The position numbers and the translations under genes were made by a program. A stretch of 64,000 nucleotides of DNA from Amphiscolops sp. MND2022 (Eukaryota). The notes under the pieces are model-generated. The model made no database searches. It had not been told where the DNA came from and was given only the letters and a program-made list of their open reading frames with translations. Positions 8,717 through 38,995 of the stretch are shown here, piece after piece. The DNA lies in the NCBI GenBank assembly GCA_964187785.1, contig OZ076409.1, positions 25,670,001 to 25,734,000 on the forward strand, given 5' to 3'. Position 1 is the first letter of the stretch. Every line of letters starts with the position of its first letter.

Positions 8717-8898
8717 AACCAAAAATGGTTAAGAAAAACAAAAATTGAACAATTTAGCAGTTATTCATTATTTGGCGAACTTTTTCGGCACTTGTCTCAA
8801 AAAGTTGTAACTTTTTGGGACAAGTGCCGAAAAAGTTCGCCAAATAATGAATAACTGCCAAATTGTTCAATTTTTGTTTTTCTTAACCATTTTTGGTT
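8717..8898. repeat. 182-bp near-perfect palindrome
   Basis: Two 90-bp arms (AACCAAAAATGG...CAAAAAGTT / AACTTTTTG...CCATTTTTGGTT), 2 mismatches, 2-nt spacer at 8807-8808. Confidence 0.95.

Positions 8899-11997: not shown

Positions 11998-12042
<45 letters not shown>
11991..12042 (+). repeat. (GAAA)n/(GA)n microsatellite
   Basis: Direct reading. Confidence 0.95.
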
Positions 12043-12046
<4 letters not shown>

Positions 12047-12229
12047 AGAGTGTGAGAAGAGAGTTTTGAAAGATGTAAACTTAAAGCTTTTAAGTTTATT
12101 CCAAACTTCAATAGCGTGATGCTGCCAAAATTGTCTTCTTTTGCATGGCCTCTGAAGTTTCTGTATTTTGGAGGAAGCTTTAGCTTTCATACATACCAGC
12201 TGCATGAGAGCGTCGCAGGTAACTAAAGT

Positions 12230-13485: not shown

Positions 13486-13989
13486 CCAGAGTTAGCACTA
13501 GAGCTCCTCCCCGAACCCTGGACCGAGCCATGACCCTACCTGAGTTTTCAGAAAACCAGTAACCGCATCAACCTGGAGCCGAAGAAGGCACCTCGTCGCA
13601 AGCGTCACGTTACCAGCTGAGAGCAAAAAAGACACCACGGTATAAGTGTGGAACCTGTGATTCCCGTAACTGCAGTTGCATTCAGCTAGTCGCTAACGAG
13701 CCACTGGACCATCGATTGGCCCGAGGAGCGGCCATCCCCGCCCGCGAACTCTTGATAGCGCGAGCACCACAACAACCCTCAGAATAAAGTTCTAACTGTT
13801 CAGACCCGACGACAAATCTCGAGCGCCTTCTGACTGTGCAACACATTGTCATAACTGTAGTAAAAACCTACGCCAACGTGGAACTGGGAGTCGTACCACC
13901 ACTTCAAATCACACTGAAAGCACTGCACGACACCTCTCTCTCTCAGACTGCCCCAATTACCGTTTCAAAGAATGGACACAACATGACCG

Positions 13990-14900
13990 AGGCGGTCTAG
14001 AATTCACGCTACCTGCCGTCACACCTACATTTTGCCATAGTACTCGGCAAAATGGATGGTGAGATCGGAAAAACAGAGATGATTCGCTGCATAACCGCAC
14101 ATCAGCTGTGAGAAAAGTACGTGTTGCTTCCCCTCCGGGAGATGTATACCGGCCTACCCAGGTTTGGTGGCTATTAGTCACTTCCTTCGATGAAACACCG
14201 CGCGTATCACCCACTACGCTGTTGATGTGCCTAGAGAGCTCACGCCCAGTAGTAGAGGCCGAACACACCCTCTGCTTTCACCTAGCAGATATCTATCGCG
14301 GACAGTTTTTGAGTCAACATTGGTTACAATTAATAGCAACCGATTTCCGTCGACAAGCAAAGATACACGTCCTGGACAAAACAGACCTATACGCCAGGTC
14401 TTGAGGCACTCTCAGTAGTGCATGGCTGATAACGCAACTCAAAACTAGGCCGAATTACTTGCCATGGATAACCTACGCCACCACGGATATTCTACAGGCC
14501 CCGGCACTGTAGTGTTATGTTGTCCCGCGGATTTATTATCCTACTCAGGGACCGCTCGCTACGTTACTCGCGAATATGGACAGGAGGACACATTCCGGTT
14601 AAGATCGGCGGTCGGCACAGCATTGCGCCTGGTTAACTCGCCAACCGCACCCTGGAGCAACGAAATCCTTATTTTGTGCACCAGAGCTTCCAATAGACAC
14701 CTGTTGCGGCACGAAGTCTTACACGCGTGTCGAACCCATTTGACGCACCAGCTTCACTGAAATCGCTTCACACGAATTCACTTTCCCGTTTTTGATCCCG
14801 AACGGTCAATCAATTTGTTACCGGCTTGGTATGCTACGTTACGTGATCACTTTACGGATCAGAATCTAGAAAAGGTCCTCCGTGACCGGGTTTACGTCTC
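13990..14900 (+). pseudogene. Tandem divergent macrodomain-like (OARD1/TARG1-type) region
   Basis: VVLCCPADLLSYSGTARYVTREYG...ILILCTRASNRHLLRHEVLHAC...RIHFPVFDPERSINLLPAWYATLRDHF parallels the TARG1 motif order (HCISxD..GAGIA..F..FG / YYLITK / MPRIG..LD...W); a weaker copy precedes it (14108-14404). Confidence 0.55.
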
Positions 14901-15281
14901 CATAGCATCCATAACGTCCACCGATGTAGGCACCGAAAGAAAACTGTCCCCCAGAACCACAAGGCCAGCGGCCTTCCCTTTTCTCTCGTTTCATCGAAAA
15001 AGAATGCACTCTAGGTTTTTAACAGTAGTGAATAGCCACGGAGTACTTTTTATCGCAATCATGTACTTCTTAGTCTCATGTCCAGTGTGTTTGTCCTGTC
15101 TAGTTTATGTGAGTCGGTAATCAACCATTTTTGTTCTCAATTGCAACTTGCTTTTCAGTTTTGTCCTGTTGCCTCGCCGCCTCTGCGCGGCTCTCCCATA
15201 AGTCACGATATATCCATCCACCATCAACCAAATCTGCCTTTGCCCCCTCACTTATCTTCGGTGCTATGCCAATTATCAAAG

Positions 15282-18200
15282 ATGGATTCCTCATCACGAA
15301 GCAGAATGCCAGCACCCTCGAACCCGCAAAACTCTCGGCAGTATGCCCCTGAACCAGCACCAACAAGTACTACCTCATCCGTAGGCGAGATCGATGCGAT
15401 GGTCGAGTCGACCAGCTCGCCCTAGTACAACAAACGCTGCAAAATGTGGCAACCCCACAATGATCACTGGCTTTGCCTTGATCATTGCCCAAATGCAATC
15501 GCAAGCAGCCCATCCGGACATTTGCCTTACCATCACTAAAAGCATCGGCTCGCTAGAGCGCTCCGCCAGCTTCCGTGATGGCACTTGGCGTGGGTATGAC
15601 TTGACTCATGACCTCATTGACTTAGAGTTTCCCCGGCAACCATGCAACCGCCGACGAATGGCCCCATACACCCATTAGCATCAACACAATTTAGCTGCAC
15701 ACTGCAAGCGGTGCCGCCACCGATTCTCACGCCCCCATGCCTTTGGCATCCGAGAGCATCAGAGTACTAACGCACCCGTCTACGAGCTTCATCCCTCCTT
15801 CCGCCTTCCAGTGGGAGGAGTGCAGGTGAACGCAATCGCAAATAACACCGTACAAAGCGAAGAACAGGCACGGGAAGATCGCCCCACGAGGACGGTCACG
15901 TTTCGGGACTCCTGTGATGCACTGACTCAATCCTCCTCTAGGGATGAACCCCCAAGAAGCGAGCCCAACAGCCTAATAGGCTTCTAGAATGACCCACAAC
16001 TGCAAGAACGCCAGCGGCAGTAGCAGCGTGTAGACAAAAAGACGACAATGCTCCCATAGACCTGCGAGACCAGCGAGCTAGGGACATGAGGGAACAGTCG
16101 AGCTCGAACACTAACAGAGAACTCCCCTCTGCCCCCACCCAACCAGGATCCAGAAGACAAAAGATAGCGCGGGAATGGCTCACTGCCGCCAAAACACAAC
16201 AGCTGGACCTAATGGCAAAAGACGCAGTGCGTCTCCAACGTGAAGTACCAGTCACAACCAAGGAAGGGGACCCCCTTAGACAGAAGTTTGAGATCGCAAC
16301 TAGCAAGGGAGATCCCGCAACGCAGCGAACGATTGAAAAAGCAACCGTGGGGGTACTCTAGCGCGTCCCGTGAAAAAGCCAGTGTTCACAACCGAGGGAT
16401 GTCCACCGTGGTTCAATCGCCTACGAAGGGGCTTGGAAAATGACAACTCCACATATCTACAGCCCTTGCAATCAACGAACCGATTGATCCGCCAGCAACC
16501 AGGCCTATATGACGAGGATCGCCTGCAGACTAAAAATTATGCTAGATACCTCATCACACTGCTGTCTATGGGCAAGGACTTGCTGCAAAAGACGAGAATT
16601 GCTTTCTTCGGTGACTCTACCATGAAGTCATCCTACAATGCAAACAACACTCTAATGGATGTCAGGGTAATGAACGTGCCCTGCACCTCGCTCAGCAGCG
16701 AGATGGCAGAGGTTACCGACAAAATCTTCACGCCAGTTGCGGCAGAAACAATACCACTTTCCTCTATATTGGTGTACTCTAACGTGATTGATCACCTCGT
16801 TCTGCAGGGGACACTGAAATACTTTGAGTCGGGACACGTCCGATTCACCGAGGCGTTTGTAACGGATGAAGTTACTGCCAACTTGGAGACTATGTCAAAC
16901 ATCACCAGGACCATGAGGAACCAAAGTCCACCACGGGAACTGTATCGCCCCCAGGCTACATATATCTTCCCAGGCCAATACGACAGTTCTTGTACTTAGT
17001 GCTGGAAGCAGCGTATGCAAAAGACCTGAATTTCTACATTGTGGCCCCAATTTCAGAATAAATGTAACAACGTGGCGGCCGTGCGAAGCATCATATCCCG
17101 CCTTCTTGGAGGAGGTATCGAAAGCCCTACAGGCGTACACCGGATACAAAGGAAATTCCCAACTCCTGGTTGACGAAGCCACCGCCTATGATTACGGAAT
17201 GCAGATGGCACACCCGTCATTAGATGAGCGGGGCGTACGCCAAGTACATGACCTAAACGAGCAAGAACGCGAGCACTTGATAGACAATCTGTGGTATGAA
17301 CAACGAGATGAATCCACGCTTGATGAAAAAACACACGAAGCAAAATTTCACAAAGAACTGATGGCCCTGTTCAAGACCACAGAAACGATCAAGGCAGACA
17401 GGATGAACACCACGGTATTCCCTATGGCAGCCGTGGCCATGGATGCACAGCCCGGAATGGTGTCACCCACTCTAGCGTTGCTGATAGTGATGGCTCAAGA
17501 TCTGGCCAACCAGAATGAGAAGGAGCCAAGACAAACGTACCAAACGTGACATCAACTACTACGCGAGCCACTGAACCAAGTCGCAGAGCGGCTAGGAATC
17601 CCATTCCCAGTGCTCCTGTAAAACATCTCTCCTTTCTGGCTCCCCAACTTTGTACGGGCGGAATATGACCTAGACGAACAGCAATTGCGCTTGTACGTCG
17701 AAGCCATGGAAAGAGCCACGATGAGCGAGCTCCTAGCATACCTGATGGCAGTTGGCCTGCACGCGGTACACAGAGGACCTTCCAGCTTTCTGCAGCAACT
17801 GGTGTTTGACAAGAGAAGCCTATGCCTCTTCAGCTTCCTGTCATAAGCTCAAAATCAGAAAAACTGATTGTACGCAATCATAGACGCCTTGGACCCAGGG
17901 CGTCCTCTGCAATTAAGAGCGCAGTTAGATCTTAACATTGAATTCCTTATCGTGTGGATTTACTCCACGTGGGTCAACATCTCGGGAATTATGCATCCTC
18001 TGGATGAAAACCCAGCAGTTAATAGGGAGCCCACGCAGCTCCCGGGCTTTCTGTTCCCCTCTCAAGTGGTCACTCATGCAGGTAGAAACCGAGGATCTAA
18101 TCACCGTGATTGGCCCCATAGTCTGGCCAATCTTTAGCGCAGTCATGGCACTGAGATACCCCACGCAAGCTCTGCGAGTGGCTGCGAGTACCCCAACTCT

Positions 18201-19190
18201 GTCCATTCTCCAGCGGGGTCCTACTTATCAAACAGCGGTAAGAAACTTTACGTGTCTACGCCTAAAATTAACCTATAGAGAGATCAAAGACCGGAAACAT
18301 GTAGAATACAATTTCACGGCAATCATCCGAGCACGTGCGCGGTGCGCTCTCCCCATGCTCATGGAATTCAAACCGGTTGCATGGTTGCACATCCCCCTAG
18401 ATCCGCACACTGGTGCAGTAGATTCTTTTGCAGGCTGGGATGCCCCAGTAGTCTTGCGAATCTTGGCCACAATCATTCAAAGGTTGGGTGGTAGAAAACG
18501 AGGTGAGGCGCCCAGTGGGCTGCACTACCCGTACAATTGCGTTACGTCGCGTATATATTGCAATCGGGCAGAGCCCCGCATCCAAACCACGGCACGGGAA
18601 CCAAACAGAAGCACTCTGCCGATTACTGCCGAAGTCCTTAGCAACCCGCGCGCCGCGTTGGAGATATTTCTCAATTTACACCGCAGACAAAAAGAGCGAG
18701 AGCAATCAATAAGCGAGGACTACGCGGGAGGCTTTCTGACTTTCAAGAGCTTGTTCGTGCAATACGGTCATCAAGAGCTGGCCGATAGCCTACCAGAACT
18801 CCACCAGGGAAGTGCGACTGGCGAGACCGACAAAATGAATGCAACAGCCCTTGGCAGTTCACAGCCGCCACCTTTGAAGTGAGCCCGCCAGATAGGATAA
18901 AGACCCGAATGGAAGATGACCACGAGAAAATGTCCACCGCAATGCGAACCCCCGATGAGTCCATAATGGATGACAATTTCACTTTATCTGGGGCAGCCAC
19001 GCCTGCCCAAGACGAACCCGGCACGGGTATTCTCAAATGGACGCTGCCGACATCGAATCAGAGCTAAACAACCTCCTGACAATCGATGATCCTAGCCCAT
19101 ACTTTTGCATGGTGGCGGTCCCCACCACAAATCTAGAGCCATCGGCTACCAAGTCAATTCAAGATCTGCCACCGGATCTGACTGAGGAAT
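15282..19190 (+). pseudogene. Large extra ORF (broken) with SGNH/GDSL hydrolase-like domain
   Basis: Chain of same-strand ORF fragments; RIAFFGDSTM (GDS at 16610-16618), then VRVMNVPCTSL and ILVYSNVIDHL in SGNH block order. Confidence 0.5.
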
Positions 19191-19756
19191 GAGGGCGTCA
19201 ACCGACCAAATTCCATTTAATGAAACTGCCAAGAAACAAAATACTTACTAAAGTACTGTGATTGATTTCTGTTTTGCATAGGGTTACGATGAAGAATCCG
19301 CGCTATAAATTTTTTTGGCTTAGTTTAGTGCAATATACTATATTTTGAGCAGTACGCATTATATTTTGAAGATCGCCACGTGATGTTTAGTTCATTGATA
19401 TCCAGTGGGCGGGTCCCGAGTTGGTGCCCTTCTGCCTCAGTTCGACGATTCAACGTTGTTACCAAGACCAAACCGTTGTCGTTGTTTTGGCCGTGCAGAG
19501 GCCCAATTCAGAAAAAAGATTTTAACTTAGATTGGCAAGACTGTAAAAGAGTTCTTAAACTGACTGTCGTGTTTCCAATTTTATCAGGTGCCTTTTGAGT
19601 TTGCAAGCCTTTGTGCGAAAAAGATGCTAAGAAAAGATAATATATTATTGACGAAACTCTGCCGTGATGCTAAGTTAGCTCTCAACGTCGCAAATACACT
19701 CTGGGTGCAAGCATTCTCTCGTTTGCCGAGGACGACAAACTGCGGCTCGGGGAGAA

Positions 19757-21777: not shown

Positions 21778-22717
21778 TATGCAACCTAGTTGCCACTCTA
21801 CATTTTTACAGTACATGAAATTTCGACAACCCATACATTTCATTGTATGATCCGTAGTACGAATTGCACAATGAGGTCCGTGATTGTACGATCGTGCTAT
21901 GATCTCACAAGATATGGATTTTAGTGTTGAGAGAATCAACCTGTGATAGTATCATGGATACCCTCAAAGATGAATATTTGGTTTTCATTCACGAGCAATT
22001 TCATTGTGTGTGATAATGCTACTTTCCACAGAATAATTTGTTTGATACAAAGATTTCGTTGCAAGGTCTTGTTTGCAACGCTCATCCGAGAAGTGTTGGA
22101 CAACGTTTGATTTCAGGCTGAAGACAGCTATGGGAGTCAAATTGAAATGATAGAAACGTAAAGGTGAAAATAATGGTAATCTTTCTAATCAAAGGGACTA
22201 AATTTGTGTACTGCGATCTTTTTTTTTCTGGCAGATGCTAAAAATTTGACTTCGATGATGATTTCTTTCATTTCTGTCAAGTTTGCTGACATTAAAATTT
22301 GAATATCTTGACTTATTAATCTACTAAAATTGGCTTTTTTTTTCAACTAAGTTAGTGGAGCCAGTGAAAAAGTCACAGCACAACTCTGCCACACCCACAA
22401 AAATCAATGAATGCGATCAACTATTAGTGGGGTTGGAGATTCAGGACTCCATTCCCTATTTCTCAGTCAACACTGCTCGACCCAATTCATCAAATTTTAG
22501 TTACCAAAATGTTTCGAACTTCGGATTTATACTATTATTTGCTACTTTTGTGAATGGTGCTTTACCAATTGCTAATCAGTGTCTTACTTGAAGTTTCAGT
22601 TTTGTTATTGTATAATGTTCATTATACTTTAGGAAGATTGAATAAACAGAAATTGATGCTAATCGAACCAAGAAAAAAGAAACAAGAAAATGAAACCAAC
22701 ATGTTTTTTTTACTATC

Positions 22718-24356
22718 TGTCGCAGGCTGCCGCCTGCGATGGCAACATTTACACGATTGACCATACGAAGCCAATCGCCCTACCTGGGACGCTCCCATTG
22801 TAAACCAAAACTTTCAAACATTTAGTATTATTTTGAACATGTAATATTGATTGATGAATTGTATTGTTATTTCTTATGTAAAATACATTTGACAGCAAGC
22901 CATACTGACAGGCAGAAAGGAAACGTGTTCAAATGTTTGCCTGCTCAGTATGGCTAGCTAAGCCGCCTATGGTCAATTGGCCAATCAGAGTGCAGTTTGT
23001 AATAGCCATCTTATTACTTATTACGTAACTGTGCTAATAACTATTTAGAATGGACCAAGGCGGCCAACTAACTTTGCCGGCCTTATTGTGCTCTGATGCT
23101 ATACTTGAATGGTATTCAGTAATTACAAATAGGACGAAAGCGGCTATGCGACATAGCCGTCCCTATTCACTGTATTAATTGTCTTGGTGCTATGCAGTAA
23201 ATAAGGCCTATCATGGCCGGTTGGCACGATGAATACTCAAATGCTGTATACTTGCCATATGAAATTGGTATTCCAGTTAATTAGTGGTTTGAAGATGCAA
23301 ATAACCCACCCCATGCAATAAACAGATATATACACTGTTAACATGTAATTGTTGCTTTCTCACATTATGATAGGACCGAATTAGAAAACCCCAACGGTCA
23401 TAAGCCGAATAGGGCCTTCATGAATTGTTGAGCATGTAAACTGTTGCTTGCATGAATTTTACTTGTAAACAATTTGACCCATATGTGGAAGAGACTTGTC
23501 GGGCCTTTTGATCTAGCCGCCCGCACAAGTCTAAAATGATGTCATGTTGCTATTAATAGTTTCACTGTATCTATTTTTAGCTTGTGTGCTATTTTCAGTA
23601 ACGTGACTGACGAAATCTCAGATGTCATGCTAACTTGAGTATAAATACGCCCAAGTTGGCCATAAGACTCAGTTGATTTATGATACGGTTGATATTCAGT
23701 TATTCTTATTCGATTTGTACAAGAATCACTGTAGACCAAGCTCTATATTGTCCACAGGAACAATTCCCATATTTACTCCTGGAAAAACATTTTCAATGCC
23801 TTCTACAAGGAGACAAAAGGCCAAGTCTAGGAAATCAAGAGAATTAGATATGTTGTCCGACTACGGCAATATGGACGTGATGTTAGGTGAGAGAAATTCT
23901 AACTCTATAGAAAGAGAACTCGATAGTTTGATTAACGTCCCCGAGGGACAACAGGACTTTCAGTCCTTTCCGAATAGAGAAAATTCATCTCAAGAGAACG
24001 AAATCAGAGACATTGATAGCAGAAATGAACCAGTTAGGGAAAGTAGGCTAGTTGAGTCTATCAATACACTATCTGGAGAAATGAACGCTAGGATGTCACG
24101 CGAGATGGAAGCTATGATGGACCTAATGCAATCACAGATTAGCAGGGCCATTAGTTCCGCTATAAGCGAGAGGATTATCCCAGAGATACAAAATATGGTA
24201 GAAAATTTGCCTTTGGGTCGACATGGCGTTGAGCCGTGTACGTCCGCGGATGAGGACGGAATCAGAAATGTATGGAAGAACGCAAATACAAATTAACAAA
24301 GAAGGATTCAAGGTCCGCTTGTGATCTGAGAGACCACATGGACGTTAGTCCTTACA
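22718..24356 (+). repeat. 5' LTR of element 2 (1639 bp)
   Basis: TGTCGCAGG...CCTTACA; direct repeat of 37295-38889. Confidence 0.97.
23640..23674 (+). promoter_or_regulatory. LTR core promoter: TATA box plus Inr
   Basis: TATAAAT at 23640 and TCAGTT at 23669 (A 31 nt after the TATA start); gag ATG 125 nt downstream. Confidence 0.7.
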
Positions 24357-24374
24357 TGGTGACAGGAGCTACCG
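24357..24374 (+). promoter_or_regulatory. Primer-binding site
   Basis: TGGTGACAGG... directly after the LTR's terminal CA; absent after the 3' LTR; cognate tRNA not established. Confidence 0.8.
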
Positions 24375-25487
24375 AACTCCAACAGCCGATTCCTGAATTC
24401 CTCACAGGACGAATTCACTCTCAGCCAGACCTCCAAAGACAACAATCCACTCATGATATAACTCTGGATACAACTCTGCCAAGAACAGTACAACTCCGGC
24501 AGAACAGCCACAAGACCCTATCAACCGATTGGCAGATGTCCTGGTAAACCTCCAAAATAAACCACACTCGATGACAATTAGACCAGTCACGACGAACCCC
24601 ATGACATTTGACGGCAAAACAGAGAAATTTGAATTGTTTGAAGATTTTTTTCATACAATGATAAAGATGCAGCCCGCTATGACTGAAGAAATGAAAATAA
24701 ACCATTTTCATTCTCTGCTCAGAAAAGGAGCACTGCAAACTTTCCGAAATATAAACTCCATAAACCTTCAAACATTAGAGGACGTATTGGTTATATTCCG
24801 CAGAAAGTACGTCAAACCTGAGTCCCAGGCCACAGCTAAACACAAATGGCATAGACTCATCTTCGACCCCAACACAATGAAACTACCCGATTTTCTTGAG
24901 CAACTCAACCAGGGTGCCGAGAAAGCCTTTGGGGAAATCGCCAAAAGCATGATCGACAGTCTCCTGTAAGCTAAATTACCCCCAAAACTCAAAAGATCAG
25001 TAAATATGGCTCGACTGGAAAACGGGACCTACGAGGAGATTGTAGCAAATCTGGAAAGAGAACTCGAGTTAAACGCATTAGAAGAATCTGACGACCTACC
25101 CATTGCTACAATGGCTTCGTCGTCCAACAAATCCCGAAATTTACTATCCAATGGCATTGACACCAACAAAAATAACCAATGCTCATACTGCAAGGCAGAG
25201 GACCACTTCTGGAAAAATTGTCCAAAACTGAAAAAGAAGAAAGAATCAGAGGCCAAAGATGGCAAGAGGCCTCAACGACAAACTTACCCAGAATGCCCCA
25301 CCTGCAGCAAAACCAATCATCCAGCAGAGAAATGTTGGCGTGGCGCTGGTGCCCACCTTCGTCCAAAAAGAAATCGACAAGACTCCTCCAAAGATACGGA
25401 GCCCTCTGAAGACGAAGGCACTCGCACCAAGAATGAAAAATCCACAACATCCTCATCAGGCCAATCGAATTCCAAAAAACCTGAATC

Positions 25488-25494
25488 AAAAAAC
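25488..25494 (+). promoter_or_regulatory. -1 ribosomal frameshift slippery site A AAA AAC
   Basis: Directly before the gag stop; the -1 frame is open and in phase with the protease once the MITE is removed. Confidence 0.8.
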
Positions 25495-28400
25495 TAATTT
25501 TGCCACGACTCCAAATCTCTGATCAAATGTCGATACGACAATATGTCATATCAGACCCAGCTACTATCGCCTACAAGCAATCACAAAAGGACATCACAGG
25601 GACCCCATCGACTGTCTGGCAGCAGCACATTATAAGACACAACTTTCACGAACCTCAAAAGTTTATTAAATATCCTTAAATGCTCCACAAGGGAATTTTC
25701 ACTGGGAAAATCGTATACGGAATCCTATTTTTAATAAAATTTCAAGCGCATTAGGATTATTATTACAAAGTATCAAAATTACCTATTTTGGTTATTTGTA
25801 AAACTTATAAAATGGGGGAAACGTTTTAGAGTCCTTAGTATACAGTTTATAAGGAATCCTGAAAACAGTTAGATATAAGGAAACTTGATGCATTTCCCAT
25901 GTATTAACAAGTGGAAAAAGTATCAGTAATACTTATACTTCAATGCAAATTGGCTTATAAGGAATACTTATGCATTTTAGACACGTAAATTTACGCGCAC
26001 TTTGAAAGTTGTGTCTTGTAATGCAGATGGTGGAAGCCTGTACTCAAACTCAATACATTATCCACAGTGACCACCCATACTTATATTGACGTAACAACCT
26101 CACTAAAGACTCAGAAACCCAATTCCGACCCTTACAAACTGTCGAAGACTACAACCCCCAATACTACGACCTCGAGTAAGACAAAGACCCGTACTGGGAT
26201 GAAGATTTATACGATAAACACAATTTACAATTTCGGAATGATGACTACCCGCCAACAGACGATGAGGATGACCCTGACATAGTAGACACCATACTGTCCC
26301 GGGCACTTATCGAACCGTGGCAACCAAATTTTGATGCAATCAAAGATCAGCCACATGCAGAAGAGACACAGACCACACCTGGCCTCCTCGACGAGACAGC
26401 CTTCATACATGTCCTTGTAACTAAAGAGGGAGAACCAGCGTACATACCATTATCCACAAACCTCGGACTCAAATATAAAAAACGGATGCTATATTTCCCG
26501 ATGGACTTTGGGGAACTAACCATAGACGGCCTCATAGAGACTGGAGCTCACTCCAGTGCAATACCGGAAGCAGACCTCAGGAAAATACGCCTCTTGGCGC
26601 CCCAATCCATAGTCAAAGAGGGACCTGCCCCGACGTTTCAAATTATGGTCGCAAACGGACAATTGGAAACCCCAAAGAGCACTGTTGAACTCAAGTTCGA
26701 AGTCGGAGATATCGAATTCCATGAAATATTTATAGTAATGGAAAAACTGACTGGCCCTATCATAGGACTGATGTTCCTCCAGAGGAATCATACGGTACTG
26801 GACATGCGACAAGGCATACTCAATCTCCCATATTTCTCGATGCAACTCAAAACGGCTGACCATAAATATTCTAATGTACTGGAACCAATACTTAACCCAG
26901 ACGATATCACAATACCACCCAATGACCGTATCTTAGTAGAGATCAAATCCCAAATCTACAACGAAAATACGGTCACAGGAGTGCTACAGCCCAGTGATCT
27001 CCTCCATGAAGAAGGAGACATCACATTCTGTGCCGCGATAGTCACATTGACTAGTGGAAATGTCAACGTTCAAATCAACAATTTCACGGACCAACCGTAT
27101 AAGCTTAGAAAAGGGACTACACATAGCAAACTTTTCTGTACTAACACCGGAACAGATGAAACACGTCAAACCAATTGACCCGGTGTCCACATGGCATCTC
27201 CTCAATGAAAATGAAGAGGATGCGATCTACTATGTCAGTAGTCTCCTCAAGGCTAATCGGAACAATGATCAATATGAACAGTACTGGTTTCCTGCGCCAG
27301 AAACCCAGGGGACGAAGATTCCCATACCCCCATCCAACGATCCAACGACGAATTCTTCAAGAATTACGAAACCTCCAAGAAGCTGAACTATTGAACCCTC
27401 AAAATGATGATGAGTCACGCCGCAAATTCCTTAGCAATTTTGACTGGAGAGACTCCATGCTGCAACAACACGAAATCAAAAAGATCGAATCGCATTTAGT
27501 CGAATACCATGACATATTCGCACGATACAGATTTGACATCGAAATGAATGAAGAATTCACGGTCAAACTGACCCCTAAGGACGATTCGCCCGCTTACAGC
27601 CAAAGTCTTCCAACTCCAGTCAATTTAAAAGAGGACATACTCGTCGAACTGGCCCTCTTACACAAACATGGCATAGTAACTACACTGCCATTTTCGAAAT
27701 ACGCCAGTCCCAAATTCGCACAGAAAAGCCGAATGGGAAGCTAAGACTTCTAGTCGACCTGAGGAAAATTAATAACCTCATTTCGGATGACTATATAAAC
27801 AACAATCATCCGGTTAGTACCCTAACGGACGCTGCACAACATATGGCAGGAAAGAAACTATTCTGTAAACTTGATTGTTCACAGGCATATCACTGCCTAC
27901 CAATGGCGGACCAAAGGTCCGTTGAGATGCTTGCGTTCAACTTTGCAAGCCGCACCTTTGCGTATCGACGACTTGCTCAGGGCCTTAGCAGGGCATTATC
28001 AGCATTTTCAAGCTTTATGAGGGAATACCTCGATAAAGTTATCAAAGCTGATCAATGTGCCCAATATGTCGACGACATTGGCATAGCCGCCAATGATGCG
28101 GATCATCTCATAAAAAATTTGAAAGCAACCTTTGAGTGCATTAGGCATGCTGGCCTTAAACTGACAATGCACAAATGCCACTTCGGGGCAACGGAGATCA
28201 TTTTCTTGGGGAGAACAATTACTCCGGCGGGAGTCAAACCACAAAAGGAGCGAATAACAAACTTCCTAGAAAAAACCAAATTCCCCAAATCTAAAAAGGC
28301 TCTACAAAGATATCTTGGTTTCCTCAATTATTACAGGAACTATATCCCAAGATTATCTGAAAAATTAGCTCCTTTCTTTCAACTTCTCAAAAAAGACGAA

Positions 28401-31133
28401 AAAGTCCTGGTGACCACAGAACTAATACAACAGTTCAATGAAATCAATCGGGACCTCGACAAATGTAGCCAATTGGCCCTGAAGCAACCTTTGCCAAACA
28501 AGCAACTGGTCTTGATGACAGACGCTAGTTTCACAGCGGCCGGCTACGCCATACTTACCGAAGACGACCCAAACCAGAAATATTCATCTGTCAAAAAATC
28601 ATACGCTCCAATTGCATATGGCTCAAAAACTTTTACGCCATCGCAACTCAAAATGTCCATATACGCCAAGGAATTCTTAGCAATTTATTACGCATTCGAA
28701 GAATTTGGACATATTTTCTGGGGAGCCCCTAAACCGATTACCATCCTCACGGACAACAAATCGGTCACGAGATTCTTCCAGACGAAGATAATCCCTCCAA
28801 CACTCTGGAATGCATGTGACTATGTAATACAATTCAATTTTGTCATAGCACATATACCATGGAAAAACAACACAGCAGCTGACTACTTATCTCGCATAGA
28901 AACGGACCCCAGAGAGAAACTAGTCCTTAAAATCCGAAAAGACATAGAGACTAAGCCCATCGAGGTCAATGTCCAATCAGCAGGCGTAGCTGAAGAGGAA
29001 CAGGTTTTCTTCACGGAGCAAGATGATGAGACAGAAGCTCAAATTTGGGAGCGTAAAAAACAAAGCCGAACTAACCCAATCGACCAAGAAGGCGTAATTC
29101 AAATTGACGCAATATCTGAAAATCTAGTAGATGAAATTACGAACTTTACCCAAAAAATGCGCAGAACGAACCAAGTTTTACTTGAACAATCCAAAGACCC
29201 TATACTGCGCCAACTCAAAGCCAAAATTCAAAACGAAGACTATTCTGAAGAACTACTCCAGCAAGATATCCGATACAAACACTACCTTAACAACTTGGAC
29301 CGAATAGTCCTTGAAGACGAAATAGTCACACGACAATATTATGATTAAACTGGACAAGTCAAGTATCACCAGGTTCTCTTAACAAAACACCTTTTGACAG
29401 AATTGTTACAGGCCCTACACGGAACGGCGCACAAACACCCTGGCATATCGAAAATGTTACAAGAAATCCGACAGAAATATTACTACCCTGGTATAGCAAA
29501 ACATGCTAAAAAATGGGTAGAAGGATGTGTAGCTTGCGCAAAAGATAAAAGGGTTCCAAACAACACGATCACACCTGAATTGCTTAACTTGCCAGAATGG
29601 GACCTTGGACCAGAGGATGCAATGCAAATCGATTTACTCCCAAACCTACCAACAAGCGGGGGTTACCAAACAGTGATGACAGCAATAGAAGTCTTTTCAA
29701 GATATCTGTTTGCCTACCCGCTAGTTGAGGCAACAGCCTCCAACACGGCAAAGGTCTTAATAGACATCATGACAAAGCACTCATATTTGCCAACTACGAT
29801 CATCACCGACAAGGGAACCGCTTTTACATCAAAAATTATTGCAGAGATAACGCAAGTATTGGGATAAACATTAAAATGTGCGACGACTAAACATCCACAA
29901 ACAATTGGCAAACTCGAGAGAACTCACGCCTCATTGAAGACAAATTTGAAACTAACCTCAGGGGAATATCGCCGTCAATGGCACAAATATTTGCCGCTAG
30001 CAGTGCTGAATTATAACACAACTTATCACTCCAGCATCGGTTGTGAACCGAGCAAGGTCTTTCACGGAAGAATTCCCTATATTGTTCTTGACCATAAACT
30101 TGGAAATAATCTTAATAAGGATTTCCTCCCGACTACTGAATTTGGTGAAGAGTTACAACAGAGAACGAAAGTTCTCATTGACAAAACGAAGCATAACATT
30201 ATGCAGTCCTACTTGAAATATAAGGAGTACTATGACCGAAAGGCCAAAGCAGCTCCTCTCAGTGAACAAGATTTTTGTTTTATCCTACAGCCTAAAGCGG
30301 ATAATCAAGGATCAAAAATACCATTCAGAGAATATCGCTGGATCGGTCCTTATTGAATTGAAAAGGTATTACCTAACGACAATTACATTGTCCGCCGGTT
30401 AAATACGAATAAAACACAGATATTACACCGAATCCGCCTGAAAAAATTTGTTCCAAACACGCCCTTAGAGGACAATTAAGCCAAAGAGAAATTGCAACCA
30501 GATGATGAAATAATCATACCGCAAGATGATTTATACACCATCTCATGGGAAGCAGATTTTGACTACCATGTCTTCGATCCGAGACGAGACGATAATACGG
30601 ACGAAGAATCGCAAACACCAGACAGCGATGCTGGTGTCACGACTAGTGATTACGTCATTTATGACAACGCTGATGACAACGCGGTAAGGCCGGGGACGGC
30701 CACCAGCCGAGAAGGCACAATTACACGAGACGCAAATGACGTCACCGAATTGAATGAACGAACCAAAATGAATGAAAATGAAGCGGGACCGAGTACGGCC
30801 GCTAGCCGAGACACACCTATAGTGCATGACGAACATGACGTTAACAAGAATGCTGCGCGAGAAGAACAAAGCAGCGAAACAGGAAGGCCGAGAACGGCCA
30901 CTAGCCGAAATAGCCACAATACACCACCTAGTTCAGAAAAGAACGTGAATGACGTCACAAATGAATTAGAAGGCGAGAAAAACTCTCTTAACGAGGGGGA
31001 TGATATTACCGTGCCCGGAATATCGAACAAAAAAGCAAATGAAAAAACTGATGAAAACTCTAGCCCTAGAGGGGGGAAATACAACCTTCGACCTAACCCC
31101 AATCCCAACTATACTGATGAATACAGATACTAG
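25494..31133 (+). pseudogene. pol: pol (protease, dUTPase-like, RT, RNase H, integrase), disrupted
   Basis: LIETGA (protease site D>E), QYVDD (RT), MTDAS/KEFLA/TDNKS/ADYLSR (RNase H), LH..HKHPG..CVAC, QIDLL, ITDKG, KLERTH (integrase), WIGPY; several stops and frameshifts. Confidence 0.95.
25628..26023. mobile_element. CACTA/EnSpm-like MITE inserted in pol
   Basis: 21-bp TIRs CATTA(T/C)AAGACACAACTTTCA; 2-bp TSD CA; removal restores WQQQMVEA in the pol frame. Confidence 0.9.
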
Positions 31134-31308
31134 TCAGAAATGATAAATTATGTCCCTATTTATGTTCTTGCCTAATAAGGCATGTTTTTGACTGGGACTA
31201 CTCTGACTTCTTTGACTCAAAAGAAACTAACTATATAAATATGAAAACAAAACAGAACTGAAATTTACAACTCAAAAGTTTAAAATGGCGAATGTACACT
31301 ATGTACAT

Positions 31309-34300
31309 TTAACTTTTAGAGCTTCCTTCTCGCAATTCTTGCACTGTCTTTGACAACTCATCAGCAGGGAGATCGCCGAAATAAGCAAGTTTTTGTGCTT
31401 GGCCGGCAGCCCATTTAATCTTCCGAATAGCAGTAGTGGACACAGAGGACGAGCGTGACGCAGTACTGATACCGACAACAGGAACACTTTTCAAGCTCTT
31501 AAAAGCACTGGTGAGATTCTTTAAGAATTCGGCCCGGCCAAACACGTCAGCGTGGACCCAAGGGTCACCAGCGAAGTGTCTGGAGCTGAACTGTCCCTCT
31601 AACTCACGATACTGGGCCAAGGCGGACTCAGTAGTGCAATTGGCAATTGCTTCTGGGCAGTTTGACAAATACGACTGTGCGGGCAAAATTATTGCAGAAA
31701 GTCGACTACTGGAGCTAGAAGTATCTACATCATGGAATTTAATGGTCGGAAGTTCCTGATGGGCCTCAGTGATACAAAGACAGCATAACCGGAAGAGGTG
31801 GAAAAGCCTTGAACGGCTACGAAACAATGGCATAACGATAAGGAAGTCCAACATATCAACTATTGTGTTGGGAGCATTTTTGACTGTGCCACAAGTATTT
31901 CGGAGAAGATCGATGAACTCGAAATACTCTTCTTGGTAGTCACTCTTAACGGCTAGATCCACCCAACCACGGAGGTGGAAGCTATCAAACAGGGCGTTGA
32001 AGCAGAAGGTAGCCTGTTCCAAAGGAAGAGAGAGGAACACGTGTGGGTCGAAGCAGCCCATACCGTGTATAATATCAGCGGTGAAATGGATGTCCTCCAA
32101 CAAAGCTTCCAATAGAGAGACAATGTAAGCGCGAGCTTCTGTCCCAACTTTTTCCTTCTCCCTAGCGACCATTTCTTCTAGACTGGCAGTGGGAGCCTTG
32201 TCAGCAGGGAAACGCTTCACTTTAGCTTGGCAAGCAGCATCAAGGTCAACGGTAAATTTGAGTTGATTCAAAAAATCGCGGCAAGATAGCTGTCTCAGAT
32301 CGTCAAGGCACAGATGGAGCAACTTTGTCCACTCAATGTCTCCAGGGATGTACTTGGGCAGAATGGCTCGGTGGCACAATTTCCTCACGTAACGGCAATA
32401 CTGTCCGTAAACGAACAGCGCTGAGTCACGTCGCTATGCCAGACTGCGCTCAAAGCATTTGGTATCTAAACAAACGAAGTCAAAATTGAGTCCTAATATG
32501 TGATAATCTAGTGAGGTCTCCTACCTTCTCAATCACTAATGACAATCATGATCAAATTCCAACATTAAAGGAAAAGAGACAATTAGGGCTCAGCTTTACA
32601 ATGAAGAAAAATGACTAACAATCACGGACTAGAAGGGACAAAAGTTCTAATTTAGCGGTGAACAAATCGTCCTGGATGATCTCCCACTCCAGACTTTGTG
32701 GCTAAAAAGAAAAATTATATGAGAACTGGGTCGACAAGAAGGATTACTTCACATGAGGGTGTTTGGCAAATTAAATGGACAAACAGAAGACTTGTACCTT
32801 GTTTCTCACTCCTTGCATCACTTGGGTTGGTGCCAATTTCGTCAAGTAGTCGTGAATGGTAGACCAATTCTTTATGAGTTCAGTGCAAATTGTCGGGACC
32901 TTTTTGAGGTCCAGGTCACAAGCTGCGGATGCCTGCAAAAGAATAATCCTCATAGTCATGCTATAAGTCAGGAAGACAAAGGACCTATGGGCTGCAATGA
33001 AAATCAGAGAAACGATGGTTACATGAGGTAATGTCAACAGAAATTTAAGTTGGACCCACCTTACACAACTCTGGACATTGTGGGGCCCATGGCTGACTTG
33101 GACTACCGCGGAGAAAGACGACTAAGTATTTCAGCTGCGAGAACATATCAATGCGGCCAAAGACATGGGTAGTCTGAAGGGCATTTGGGTGCATCAGGTC
33201 AGGCAGAGAAAAGGCTTCAAAGCGGAAGGGATATTGGATTCCGTGCTCATATAGTTTGGAAGATTCAAGGGCCTGGAACGCCATAGAGGAACACCCGGAG
33301 ATGCTGACTAAATTCGGCTTGGAGGAAACGCAAGACAGCAAGCACGATATGGCAGATAAACAGCAATCGGGGTACGCATCAGACTGCAGATGTCGGTGAA
33401 GCTCTACACGGACGAGTGAGTCCCCCCTCCAGAAGCGGATTGACATACACCGATAGACACCAGCTGTGGTGAATTCAATGGAATACATCCCAGTGGCAAT
33501 GACTTGACTGGAGATGTCAGCTAGCCCCCGCATGAAAATGTGGTGGAAGATGTTCTGAAATGAAAACGGATAATTAAAGAAGTTTGAGACCCACCGACCA
33601 ACTGGGCCTATATTTAGATATGAACTACAGAACTACTTACGGTGAGAGTGGCAGGTCCCCAATCGAATGAGGAGAAAAGGGCTTGATGGTTGGTGAACAC
33701 ACCGACCTTTGTCCATAAATTCTGCAAGAGCGAGAGGTTGCCATCTTGAGGCACGAATGTTCCAATTAGAGAAATGAGGGTGCTAGTTCGCAAATCGCTG
33801 GGATTGGTGATTCCCCCTATGCTGGCCATGTAGTCGTCGTAAAATGGATAACGGCCTCCCGCATCGATGAGTGGAGCGTCTATGAAACGGGGTTTCTCCC
33901 TTTCCAGCTCGAAAGGAGTAAGGACATAACCGTCCTTCCCCCTAACTTGATGTGTGACGATTCCAGTATTACTGTCTGTCTCTTGCAAATGAACATAACG
34001 CCATTTTTGATCTTTCCGCAGATGCCCTTCTTTCTGGTAATGGCGCAGTATCTCCCTCGCCCCTTTGGAGTAGATGGACACGTTAGTCTTACACAACATA
34101 CAGTAGAACTTGAATTTGTTGTGAATCGGGTCGACGGGTCCAGTCACAAAGGTCCGGGTCCATTGGATGCTCTTGAAGTACGCATCTTTCATAACCTTCC
34201 CTGGCTTGCTCAATAATTTCATTCTCTTCCGGGGAGGGCTACGTGGCAATGTCTCCATATCTTTATTCCGGGCTAAAGCAGATAAAGGTTGGTAGTCGGT

Positions 34301-35358
34301 GCTGCTGTACCCACTACCCGATGTAGGAGTAGCGTTATCAGCTCGAGACGTGCTGGTACGAATCCCCAAGCTTGTTACGGGGGTGAGTGTTAGAGGATCT
34401 GTTTCGCTAACTACTTCAGTGCCAGAAATCGACCCAAGCTGGTAAGGATCCTCGTCAGAGTTTATGGCACCACTCGTATAGCCATCACTCACATTTCCTT
34501 TTTGGCTGTCTTCCTCCCCTGAACTCTCAGCAAGATGGCGGGCTGGGGTAGGACACCTTCGGGGCAATTTCCTCTTTTTGTCCTGAGAAGTCCCCGTTGC
34601 GGCATGTAAAGGTAGGGATTTCATCTAATGATATGAAGAAAGAGCGCTTTCGTCGGCAACAGTTCTGAGGATAGCGTGCATCTGCTCTTGATTGAACGCA
34701 ACGGTAGAGTGCCCAACTGGTAATCGGATTGGTGTTGCGGCAGTAAAATATTTACGGATGATGGTTCGTCCTTTGGCTGACAACTGTCTATCGCTGGATT
34801 CAAGCATAGCCCGGTAAGCTTCTTGCTCCTCATCACTGTTCCCAGCCTCTAAGTGAAATTCCCCTTCAAGGTCCGGAAAATCCTCAGGATTCAATGTAAC
34901 GCTTCGGGAAACAGGAGGGAAAGCAGCAACTCCAGAGCTGTTCAATAACTCCTCAGCATCAGTGGTGTCACCATAAAGTGGTGCAGCCCCTTCTTGGGAG
35001 GCAATCTCTTCTTTGTCATCAGGCCCTGTGGGGCTAATTGGCCGACTAGGAGTTATAACGATGGCTTCTGAGACCGAGACCTTCTGGAAAGCAAAATCCA
35101 TGGTGGACATTCGGGGCACTGCACCTTGTTGAGCAGGGAGGATTGAAACTGATTCCCGCTCAGGCAGGTTCATCTCTGCGACGGTTCTTTCGATGAAAGC
35201 AGTAACGCTCTCATTAGTGGATCGACTACAATTGGAAGTCTGAGAAGACGGACGAGGGGGTCAGTAGTATTCGCGGGCCCTATGTGCTCAAGGTTATCTT
35301 CGTTGGAATTGTTGATTGTGGGAACAGTGGATTCTGGCAAAGCCTTCGTAGACGACAT
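31309..35358 (-). pseudogene. Antisense intron-containing gene: BED-like zinc finger plus degenerate hAT-transposase-like body
   Basis: Exons 35358-33641, 33554-33060, 32932-32798, 32701-32620, 32465-31309 joined in frame by GT-AG introns; FYCMLCKTNVSIYSKGAREILRHYQKEGH; stops at 34625-34627 and 32434-32436 and a frameshift near 35170. Start codon uncertain. Confidence 0.8.
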
Positions 35359-36542: not shown

Positions 36543-37380
36543 ATGGCTCAACGATTTCGTGAAGACTTCATTGGCGCAGCGCCCGAGGGCGTAGATATTA
36601 TCTGCCTGTCCAGCGACGAAGAGGAGGGAATGTGTGACCTAAGCATGACTTCGGTGCTAGACCTTCAACTGTCATCGGAAGACGAAGAAGAAATAGATGA
36701 CGAAATCATGATGATGGCCCAGTGTGTCGAGATGGAATTATCATCGCCCATCCCAGTGCCTGGTCCATCCACAGCGCTGAAAATTAGAAACGAGGCCCCC
36801 CGATATAACCCACCAAGGTACGGGACCTCCGGGGCGAGTTTTGCAACAAGGCCTACTCTTGACCAATCCTTCTTCTCATTAGGAAAAGGAAACGACCCAA
36901 TACGGCGAGACGACCGAGTGCGCAATAATCACCCTATCAAGCTGTGTAGGGAAATCATTCCCATGGTGGACACTCCCATGTCGCCCCCACCAGAAGAGAA
37001 AGGACCAACTTACGACACCTATTCAGCGGACGGTCAGGGCGAGATTACCCAGCAGTCATTGGACGCAGTTGCAAACCATTTCCAAGGAATGGAGATTGAG
37101 ACGAACAATCCTATGGCAAATTACTCAGTTGCGTGATATGTGGGAAATCTACATTACAAATCCAGAGTGAAGCAGTCACAGACTACTTGCGCAAGACGGC
37201 CATTTTGGGCGAATCAGCAGATCAACTAGAAGCGCGCAAAAGAGCTTTTTTCAAGGAATGCAAGTGGGCACTTTCTTATTACTACCAGGGGGAGTGTGGC
37301 AGGCTGCCGCCTGCGATGGCAACATTTACACGATTGACCATACGAAGCCAATCGCCCTACCTGGGACGCTCCCATTGTAA
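36543..37380 (+). pseudogene. Accessory sense ORF overlapping the PPT and U3
   Basis: 197-aa open frame MAQRFRED..., continued after frameshifts near 37128 (CVICGK) and 37250 as QGMQVGTFLLLPGGVWQAAACDG...TLPL*, stop 37378-37380 inside the LTR. Confidence 0.7.
37287..37294 (+). promoter_or_regulatory. Polypurine tract
   Basis: AGGGGGAG immediately before the TG of the 3' LTR. Confidence 0.85.
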
Positions 37381-38889
37381 ACCAAAACTTTCAAACATTT
37401 AGTATTATTTTGAACATGTAATATTGATTGATGAATTGTATTGTTATTTCTTATGTAAAATACATTTGACAGCAAGCCATACTGACAGGCAGAAAGGAAA
37501 CGTGTTCAAATGTTTGCCTGCTCAGTATGGCTAGCTAAGCCGCCTATGGTCAATTGGCCAATCAGAGTGCAGTTTGTAATAGCCATCTTATTACTTATTA
37601 CGTAACTGTGCTAATAACTATTTAGAATGGACCAAGGCGGCCAACTAACTTTGCCGGCCTTATTGTGCTCTGATGCTATACTTGAATGGTATTCAGTAAT
37701 TACAAATAGGACGAAAGCGGCTATGCGACATAGCCGTCCCTATTCACTGTATTAATTGTCTTGGTGCTATGCAGTAAATAAGGCCTATCATGGCCGGTTG
37801 GCACGATGAATACTCAAATGCTGTATACTTGCCATATGAAATTGGTATTCCAGTTAATTAGTGGTTTGAAGATGCAAATAACCCACCCCATGCAATAAAC
37901 AGATATATACACTGTTAACATGTAATTGTTGCTTTCTCACATTATGATGGGACCGAATTAGAAAACCCCAACGGCCATAAGCCGAATAGGGCCTTCATGA
38001 ATTGTTGAGCATGTAAACTGTTGCTTGCATGAATTTTACTTGTAAACAATTTGACCCATATGTGGAAGAGACTTGTCGGGCCTTTTGATCTAGCCGCCCG
38101 CACAAGTCTAAAATGATGTCATGTTGCTATTAATAGTTTCACTGTATCTATTTTTAGCTTGTGTGCTATTTTTAGTAACGTGACTGACGAAATCTCAGAT
38201 GTCATGCTAACTTGAGTATAAATACGCCCAAGTTGGCCATAAGACTCAGTTGATTTATGATACGGTTGATATTCAGTTACTCTTATGCGATTTGTACAAG
38301 AATCACTGTAGACCAAGCTCTATATTGTCCACAGGAACAATTCACATATTTACTCCTGGAAAAACATTTTCAATGCCTTCTACAAGGAGACAAAAGGCCA
38401 AGTCTAGGAAATCAAGAGAATTAGATATGTTGTCCGACTACGGCAATATGGACGTGATGTTAGGTGAGAGAAATTCTAACTCTATAGAAAGAGAACTCGA
38501 TAGTTTGATTAACGTCCCCGAGGGACAACAGGACTTTCAGTCCTTTCCGAATAGAGAAAATTCATCTCAAGAGAACGAAATCAGAGACATTGATAGCAGA
38601 AATGAACCAGTTAGGGAAAGTAGGCTAGTTGAGTCTATCAATACACTATCTGGAGAAATGCAATCACAGATTAGCAGGGCCATTAGTTCCGCTATAAGCG
38701 AGAGGATTATCCCAGAGATACAAAATATGGTAGAAAATTTGCCTTTGGGTCGACATGGCGTTGAGCCGTGTACGTCCGCGGATGAGGACGGAATCAGAAA
38801 TGTATGGAAGAACGCAAATACGAAATTAACAAAGAAGGATTCAAGGTCCGCTTGCGATCTGAGAGACCACATGGACGTTAGTCCTTACA
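37295..38889 (+). repeat. 3' LTR of element 2 (1595 bp)
   Basis: Copy of the 5' LTR with a 45-bp deletion, one extra base and roughly 8 substitutions counted by eye. Confidence 0.97.
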
Positions 38890-38995
38890 CTATCACATCG
38901 CGGATTAAAGTAATAGACGAAGTCCTGCGAAGAATGATATTTTAATCAGCTAATAATTACTTTTATCGCAGCTACTAGAATAAAAAGGTATTTAA

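What the first reader, a model, noticed from the sequence alone, without database searches (positions are those of the whole stretch)
23796..24380. About 187 codons of gag are encoded inside the LTR and read through the PBS
Seen: TATA/Inr at 23640/23669, ATG at 23796, and the frame (repaired with the 3' LTR's extra G) continues across the LTR end as ...VSPY-MVTG, where the terminal A plus PBS TG make ATG. Known: Ty1 gag starts in the LTR but only by a few codons. Inferred: R-U5 is ~690 nt, implying very long strong-stop DNA; att site and PBS are under coding constraint; and every solo or 3' LTR can express a Gag N-terminal peptide.
Basis: partly seen in the sequence, partly recalled or inferred. 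Interest (0 to 1): 0.72.

Follow-up and report, generated by a model that had tools for sequence, protein, structure and literature searches.

The report
Gag's first third inside the LTR
In a large family of retrovirus-like jumping genes, the first 114-216 codons of the capsid (Gag) gene lie inside the terminal repeat and are held by strong purifying selection, so the repeat likely doubles as a protein-coding module for a predicted three-stranded coiled coil, a far larger version of a layout known from yeast Ty1.

Summary
Real, and clade-wide. The element (22718-38889, Ty3/gypsy domain order) has ATG 23796 inside its 1.6-kb LTR. This copy's gag is broken, but unbroken siblings carry a 567-codon gag with 187 codons plus one base in the LTR. 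In 25 of 28 full elements from three divergent groups the LTR pair ends at the A of the junction Met (..CA|TGGTGACAGGAG), with 114-216 codons in the LTR. These codons show dN/dS 0.08-0.16 (core 0.04-0.11). A TATA box 117-267 nt upstream (25 of 29) and an ATG-poor leader (8 found, 37 expected) support the LTR start; no RNA could be checked, so R-U5 of about 550-810 nt is inferred. The LTR part encodes a basic tip and a predicted trimeric coiled coil (0.75 vs 0.01 control). Ty1 has the same layout on a small scale; I found no paper on this scale. The scan noted the same thing before in this genome (e1-9174308) and short versions in other genomes. New variant of a known kind.

The parts
22713..22717 (+). 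Left target-site duplication CTATC
   Evidence: Same 5-mer at 38890-38894
22718..24356 (+). 5' LTR, 1639 bp, TG...CA
   Evidence: blastn against the 3' LTR, 99.5% and 99.1% in two pieces
23640..23647 (+). TATA box, preceded by a conserved CATGAC-N15-GTCATG-like inverted motif; likely core promoter
   Evidence: TATA at -117 to -267 from the gag ATG in 25 of 29 elements; contexts
23670..23795 (+). Inferred 5' leader, about 125 nt, ATG-poor (this copy has one out-of-frame ATG at 23680)
   Evidence: 8 ATG in 2558 nt of leaders vs 37.1 in shuffles, 0 of 2000 shuffles as low; start site itself not measured
23796..24356 (+). LTR-encoded gag N-terminus (187 codons plus 1 nt in unbroken siblings): basic tip, long helix at residues about 78-136 predicted to form a trimeric coiled coil, disordered linker; broken by a frameshift near 24290 in this copy
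24356..24358 (+). Junction ATG (last LTR base plus first two PBS bases), Met188 of sibling Gag
   Evidence: same phase in all 66 open ORFs and 28 full elements
24357..24368 (+). Primer binding site TGGTGACAGGAG, read as (M)-V-T-G
   Evidence: 12 nt invariant across lineages, variable from base 13; primer tRNA not identified
24369..25497 (+). Internal gag: linker, capsid-like core, two CCHC knuckles; frameshift near 24481-24496 and stop at 24967 in this copy; ends at an AAAAAAC slippery site
25480..31133 (+). pol (PR, dUTPase-like relic, RT, RNase H, IN), in the -1 frame in siblings; broken here by stops and a roughly 390-bp insertion at 25631-26023
   Evidence: Pfam order; frames; comparison with siblings
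31309..35260 (-). Antisense ORF pieces between pol and the 3' LTR (no Pfam hit, no env hit)
   Evidence: not followed up
37287..37294 (+). Polypurine tract AGGGGGAG
   Evidence: same in siblings
37295..38889 (+). 3' LTR, 1595 bp
38373..38945 (+). Open 190-aa frame of the 3' LTR: 172 LTR codons (15 lost in frame) plus 18 codons of flanking host DNA

Best explanation
This is a Ty3/gypsy-type LTR retrotransposon clade whose gag frame opens inside the LTR and runs unbroken through the att end and the primer binding site, so that the transcribed part of the LTR likely encodes the whole N-terminal (matrix-like) domain of Gag, a basic tip plus a predicted trimeric coiled coil. Shown: position of the ATG, open frame in siblings, fixed phase at the junction, purifying selection, TATA box and ATG-poor leader, pol in the -1 frame. 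Inferred: transcription starts about 30 nt below the TATA box; scanning ribosomes start at the LTR ATG; R-U5 and so the minus-strand strong-stop DNA are about 550-810 nt; the coiled coil bundles Gag molecules and the basic tip binds nucleic acid, membrane or an import receptor. The junction falls in a disordered linker, which lets att and PBS dictate four or five residues (Y/H/D/N-M-V-T-G) at little cost. Because reverse transcription copies U5 into both LTRs, every 3' and solo LTR carries a copy of the domain that reads out into host DNA. The LTR-coded part diverges and is reshuffled faster than the core, and three groups in this genome have N-termini with no detectable mutual similarity in front of cores 40-53% identical.
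For: 10 of 12 sibling 5' LTRs open across the junction, 4 whole. 25 of 28 full elements have the LTR pair ending at the junction Met (3 of these one base further by a shared T); 1 more fits on inspection; 2 are uninformative (3' LTR interrupted; tandem element). NG86 dN/dS 0.08-0.16 in 9 within-lineage pairs, upper 95% bounds at most 0.25; 0.25 in the closest pair. Codon models: free omega beats omega=1 by 85, 83 and 58 lnL units in lineages of 13, 22 and 21 copies. Third-position divergence 0.165 vs 0.045 and 0.034. All indels between lineages keep the frame. TATA in 25 of 29; leader ATGs 8 vs 37.1 expected. Helix 78-136 at pLDDT 84-97. Three copies of residues 72-140: score 0.75, best of 3 controls 0.01, runs share at least 94% of contacts, pLDDT at least 85; the mark was reached by 21 of 30 solved homo-pairs and 0 of 23 single chains, on eukaryotes by 17 of 29 and 0 of 30. 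Proteins not from this genome (best match here 49% and 63%) have 126 and 223 residues before MVTG.
Against: No transcript start, 3' end, ribosome footprint or peptide was observed. The Inr is not conserved (7 of 29) and no conserved AWTAAA follows the TATA box, so R is unmapped. 4 of 29 elements lack a canonical TATA at that place. The elements examined were top hits with open frames, so they do not give the share of intact copies. Coiled coils may pass the complex test from likeness to solved ones, and only a trimer was tried. The N-terminal domain matches no Pfam family at its cut-off and no viral fold, so 'matrix-like' is by position and anatomy only. For the two outside proteins the LTR end could not be checked.
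Confidence: 0.78

Rival explanations
1. The frame is translated as described, but the LTR-coded part is not a structural Gag domain: protease cleavage in the linker (or splicing) releases it as a separate small basic oligomer that acts in the nucleus, for example on genomic RNA export, as CERV does for Cer1.
For: Basic tip with 5-7 K/R in the first 20 residues in all groups; long disordered linker around the junction; fast, lineage-specific divergence; CERV is a nuclear coiled-coil oligomer needed for gRNA export (PMC10309623, passages).
Against: No sequence link to CERV was tested or seen; CERV lies 3' of pol by that paper's text. An acceptor-like CAG/G 40 nt above the ATG exists only in the window's lineage. 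N-terminal coiled coils before the capsid domain are ordinary in gypsy-type Gags such as Arc (recalled).
Confidence: 0.12
2. Gag is made from the LTR ATG, but on an RNA other than the packaged genome (other start site, cis- or trans-spliced leader), so R-U5 and strong-stop length differ from the estimate.
For: Inr not conserved, poly(A) signal not found; a conserved AATTCAA-like motif 30-40 nt above the ATG in many lineages is unexplained.
Against: One conserved TATA with a conserved upstream inverted motif; ATG depletion begins right below it (3.1 vs 35.5 per kb). Any genome start must still lie upstream of U5, so strong-stop DNA could only be shorter if the genome starts inside the frame.
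Confidence: 0.08
3. Gag starts at the junction ATG and the LTR frame is an untranslated relic or accident.
For: The junction ATG is invariant; two short-contig proteins (P0087, P0095) are called from MVTG.
Against: dN/dS 0.08-0.16, frame-keeping indels, several in-frame ATGs upstream; the junction ATG follows from CA + TG in this phase, and one of the other two phases is closed by TGG TGA.
Confidence: 0.02

Closest known systems
Ty1 (and Ty2) of Saccharomyces cerevisiae, Ty1/copia
   Same: PBS lies inside the GAG ORF (PMC4974528, passages), so gag starts in the LTR and reads through att and PBS.
   Different: Ty1's PBS is at RNA nt 94-104 (same paper), leaving room for about a dozen codons (13-14 recalled); here 114-216 codons, a whole folded domain, and an inferred R-U5 six to eight times longer. 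Other superfamily, -1 rather than +1 frameshift (Ty1's +1 recalled).
Ty3 and typical Ty3/gypsy (Metaviridae) elements
   Same: PR-RT-RH-IN order, CCHC Gag with Ty3/Arc-like capsid features, 5-bp TSD, PBS, PPT.
   Different: Ty3's 5' PBS segment is at nt 121-128 next to the 5' UTR (PMC4974528), gag starts after it; here a third of gag precedes the PBS, LTRs are 1.25-2.1 kb and an antisense cargo region replaces env.
Retroviral ORFs in LTRs: MMTV sag, HIV nef, foamy virus bet (all recalled, no call)
   Same: Long coding sequence inside an LTR.
   Different: Those lie in U3, are accessory genes expressed from the 3' end of the genome; here the frame is downstream of the promoter (R-U5) and is the start of Gag itself.
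Ty1 p22/p18 copy-number control factor
   Same: Model for how a Gag fragment can poison assembly (PMC4599808, PMC8458377, abstracts in listing).
   Different: p22 is the C-terminal half from an internal transcript; here the candidate would be the N-terminal coiled coil from solo/3' LTRs, and no expression or inhibition is shown.

Membership tests
Ty3/gypsy LTR retrotransposon (Metaviridae) | pol order PR-RT-RNase H-IN | tested here: met
   Pfam hits in this order on 26180-29867
Ty3/gypsy LTR retrotransposon (Metaviridae) | TG...CA LTRs, TSD, PBS, PPT | tested here: met
Ty3/gypsy LTR retrotransposon (Metaviridae) | Gag with retrotransposon capsid fold and CCHC knuckle | tested here: met
   zf-CCHC above cut-off in P0089, DUF1759 above cut-off in 4 of 8 Gags, weak Retrotrans_gag and Ty3_capsid hits; Atlas neighbours Ty3_capsid/Arc at 0.93. 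Fold search of a low-confidence model gave only weak capsid hits
Ty3/gypsy LTR retrotransposon (Metaviridae) | RT groups with Ty3/gypsy, not BEL/Pao, in a reference tree; named clade | not testable with these tools
   No named reference RTs came back; BEL/Pao shares the domain order, so the superfamily call rests on Gag type, single CCHC-type knuckles and the dUTPase-like linker
Errantivirus / env-bearing endogenous retrovirus-like element | env ORF between pol and 3' LTR | tested here: not met
   9 ORFs between 30480 and 37136 gave no Pfam hit; the long ones are antisense. A divergent env cannot be excluded by Pfam alone
Ty1/copia (Pseudoviridae), Ty1-like | IN before RT | tested here: not met
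Ty1-type layout (works like) | gag start in LTR, PBS inside the gag frame | tested here: met
Ty1-type layout (works like) | Translation from the LTR ATG on the genomic RNA | not testable with these tools
   No RNA run could be laid; indirect support

The most novel reading that the evidence does not exclude
The LTR of this clade is a self-contained expression cassette for Gag's trimerising N-terminal domain. The thousands of 3' and solo LTRs make truncated coiled-coil proteins with host-derived tails that co-assemble with full-length Gag and cap transposition as copy number rises (a built-in, dose-dependent brake), and seed new host genes that start with a ready promoter, start codon and oligomerisation domain.
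Probability: 0.12. Interest if true: 0.82.

Novelty: new variant of a known kind. Interest (0 to 1): 0.52.

Why it matters
The textbook LTR is non-coding and U5 is short. Here a whole protein domain, a third of Gag, sits in R-U5 across an abundant, young, multi-family clade, under selection nearly as strong as the capsid core. It implies first-strand transfer with a strong-stop DNA several times longer than in Ty1 or Ty3, shows that att and PBS can sit in mid-protein if they fall in a disordered linker, means LTR-based annotation truncates these Gags by a third, and makes each solo LTR a promoter plus start codon plus 190-codon frame that opens into host DNA. Those consequences are directly testable with CAGE, ribosome profiling and proteomics in the host.

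Tried and rejected
RNA evidence: no RNA holder listed; this is no evidence either way. Primer tRNA: not identified; ARAGORN found none in the window and no genome-wide look was made. Miscalled LTR end: rejected, TSD, PPT and LTR pairs fix the ends. Crossover hot spot at the PBS (my idea: intermolecular first-strand transfer would swap the LTR-coded domain against the core): not supported as the main pattern. U3, LTR-gag and core trees reject each other, but so do the two halves of the core (AU p 0.004) and of the LTR-gag (p 0.0006; only 2000 replicates), and best breakpoints lay within 20 codons of the junction in only 5 of 41, 5 of 171 and 1 of 52 pairs, most being inside the LTR-coded part. 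Mapping R from breakpoints: failed, breaks sit in conserved blocks near -270 and -50. Splice acceptor before the ATG: only in one lineage. Homology among the three N-terminal groups: hhalign probability below 1%; weak profile hits link them through two outside proteins (E 1e-7 to 9e-4 on a 30-sequence set), so common descent is neither shown nor excluded. Fold searches: no match at E 0.001 in PDB (full Gag model, pLDDT 47) or BFVD (N-terminal model). The NG86 script stopped after 12 of 13 pairs on saturated dS; between-lineage values are not used. In one search the fitted omega was not printed and kappa was fixed at 2.5 in the constrained models. 8 of 66 ORFs were dropped before (6 duplicates, 2 with damaged C-termini). 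Literature: (phrases on gag or ORFs starting in or overlapping the LTR) found no description of this layout at this scale; phrase search is narrow and subscription papers and Repbase/GyDB notes are not covered. One search tested a recalled guess at the host group (acoel flatworms) and gave nothing useful; the host is not established here. PMC7055915 and PMC5371799 (passages) gave no figure for the Ty1 overlap; the latter notes that the PBS is not inherited from the tRNA in Ty1/Ty3, so I ascribe PBS invariance to pairing, not copying.

Full report
The element. Two long direct repeats, 22718-24356 and 37295-38889, begin TG, end CA and are flanked by CTATC on both sides. They differ by 8 substitutions in about 1600 aligned bases, a one-base indel and a 45-nt deletion in the 3' copy, so the insertion is young. 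A PBS (TGGTGACAGGAG, 24357-24368) follows the first, a PPT (37287-37294) precedes the second. Pfam finds protease, a dUTPase-like relic, RT, RNase H and integrase in that order. In sibling copies gag ends at an AAAAAAC or TTTAAAC slippery site and pol lies in the -1 frame (25 of 28 show a long -1 frame). No env hit was found among 9 ORFs between pol and the 3' LTR. It is a Ty3/gypsy-type LTR retrotransposon; the clade could not be named because no named relatives were returned.

The observation. In this copy gag is broken: frameshifts near 24290 and 24481-24496 and a stop at 24967. A search of the window's genome with the 3' LTR frame gave 298 matches from 150 scored of 14,373 candidates (not a copy number). 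Of the 30 loci fetched 29 parsed; the LTR end lies 562 nt after the ATG in 26, and of the 12 that are 5' LTRs 10 read open across the junction and 4 give a complete 567-aa Gag. So 187 codons plus one base lie in the LTR, as claimed.

Breadth. Protein searches gave Gags at 95% down to 37% identity over this region and more distant ones by profile (2966 at E 0.001, 150 listed). I fetched 28 full elements, chosen from top hits with open frames. In 25 the LTR pair alignment ends at the A of the junction Met (3 of them one base later through a shared T), one more fits on inspection, two are uninformative (3' LTR interrupted; tandem element). LTR codons: 181-216 in the window's large group, 189-193 in a second, 114 in a third. 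The three groups' N-termini have no detectable mutual similarity (hhalign probability under 1%) while their cores are 40-53% identical; all start with 5-7 Lys/Arg in 20 residues. Two proteins whose best matches in this genome are 49% and 63%, hence from other genomes, have 126 and 223 residues before MVTG; their LTR ends could not be checked. Two others are called from MVTG, which may be truncation or a true short form.

Selection. On 58 of 66 open ORFs (6 duplicates and 2 damaged dropped), NG86 gives dN/dS 0.08-0.16 for the LTR codons in 9 within-lineage pairs against 0.04-0.11 for the core; the closest pair gave 0.25 (core 0.78, few changes); between-lineage dS is saturated. Codon models with free omega beat omega=1 by 85, 83 and 58 log-likelihood units, and omega fixed at 0.15 is within 2-7 units of the free fit (kappa fixed, fitted omega not printed). 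Divergence by codon position is 0.045, 0.034, 0.165. The frame is therefore coding. It evolves faster than the core (tree length 1.25 vs 0.53, 1.55 vs 0.46, 1.31 vs 1.18) and is mosaic.

Promoter and start. A TATA box lies 117-267 nt above the ATG in 25 of 29 elements, usually below a CATGAC...GTCATG-like inverted motif. Between TATA+40 and the ATG there are 8 ATGs in 2558 nt (20 elements), against 37.1 in shuffles (0 of 2000 as low) and 213 in the 6000 nt above TATA (the elements are related, so not fully independent). This is what a scanned leader looks like. Taking the start 30 nt below TATA gives R-U5 of 686 nt here and about 550-810 nt across the set; this is inference. For scale, Ty1's PBS is at RNA nt 94-104 and Ty3's 5' segment at 121-128 (PMC4974528, passages). 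Long U5 regions in HTLV-1 and some plant elements are recalled, not checked, and lessen the surprise of length alone.

The junction. The PBS 12-mer is identical in all 66 ORFs found by their amino acids, including three fourfold-degenerate sites, and variation starts at base 13; the codon before the Met keeps AC while the residue is Tyr, His, Asp or Asn (36 junction types, one a chance internal match). Only phase matters: of three phases one is closed (TGG TGA) and all lineages use the same open one. Both structure models place the junction in a low-confidence, helix-free stretch, which explains the tolerance.

The protein. The LTR-coded part has no Pfam match at cut-off and no fold match. Conserved blocks are the first 31 residues and residues about 88-133. 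The model shows a 59-residue helix, 78-136, at pLDDT 84-97. Three copies of residues 72-140 scored 0.75 against 0.01 for the best of 3 controls, with at least 94% shared contacts and pLDDT at least 85, like positions pairing in register as in a parallel coiled coil; the mark was reached by 21 of 30 solved homo-pairs and 0 of 23 single chains (eukaryotes 17 of 29 and 0 of 30), and a pass may come from likeness to solved coiled coils. Only the trimer was tried. By position and anatomy it is the matrix-like domain of Gag (inference).

3' and solo LTRs. Of 28 3' LTRs, 22 carry the frame open to the LTR end and 1-104 codons into the flank, 4 stop early, 1 had no start match, 1 is tandem; the window's own gives 190 aa. 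Expression is untested, and depends on where R ends and on silencing. A brake on transposition of the Ty1 p22 kind (abstracts in listing) is the bold reading; I give it 0.12.

Comparison and verdict. Ty1's PBS lies within GAG, so the layout is known; the scale, the superfamily, a whole selected domain in R-U5 and exchangeable N-termini are what differ. Six searches of the paper library found no description of this; they are phrase searches of open papers only, and repeat databases were not covered. The scan's own notes hold the same finding in this genome (e1-9174308) and short-overlap cases in other genomes; I treat them as leads, not support. New variant of a known kind, interest 0.52.

Noticed in passing
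window 31309-35260, - strand: Four antisense ORF pieces (374, 195, 336, 211 codons) between pol and the 3' LTR, no Pfam hit, only 67-78% identical to the same region of siblings whose pol is 93-95% identical. Earlier scan notes call this a spliced, disarmed transposase-like cargo gene; I did not test that.
   Followed up: partly
window 36492-37136, + strand: A 214-codon acidic, proline-rich ORF just before the PPT, no Pfam hit; region conserved in siblings.
   Followed up: no
window 25631-26023: About 390-bp AT-rich insertion relative to siblings, just after the gag stop, interrupting the start of pol.
   Followed up: no
window 23610-23630 and equivalents in L079-L171: Inverted motif CATGAC-N15-GTCATG about 10-35 nt above the TATA box, kept across lineages whose U3 is otherwise unalignable; candidate transcription-factor site.
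   Followed up: partly
window about 23760-23770 and equivalents: AATTCAA(A/C)T-like motif 30-40 nt above the gag ATG in many lineages, including those with unrelated N-termini; unexplained (R end, packaging or translation signal?).
   Followed up: no
L004-L028, L100-L110, LTR: U3 is modular: close siblings share or differ by about 50% in blocks that switch near -270 and -50 from the ATG, giving several promoter types on nearly identical cores.
   Followed up: partly
window 43539-56109: Nested tandem duplications of 3-8 kb units at 98-99% identity.
   Followed up: no
window 12000-19500: GC-rich (50%) stretch with several 200-320-codon ORFs and no Pfam hit in the 4 tested; probably another mobile element.
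   Followed up: no
window 42155-43015, + strand: 286-codon ORF with a weak C-terminal CCCH zinc-finger hit.
   Followed up: no
window 8717-8898: Near-perfect 90-bp-arm palindrome with a 2-nt loop.
   Followed up: no
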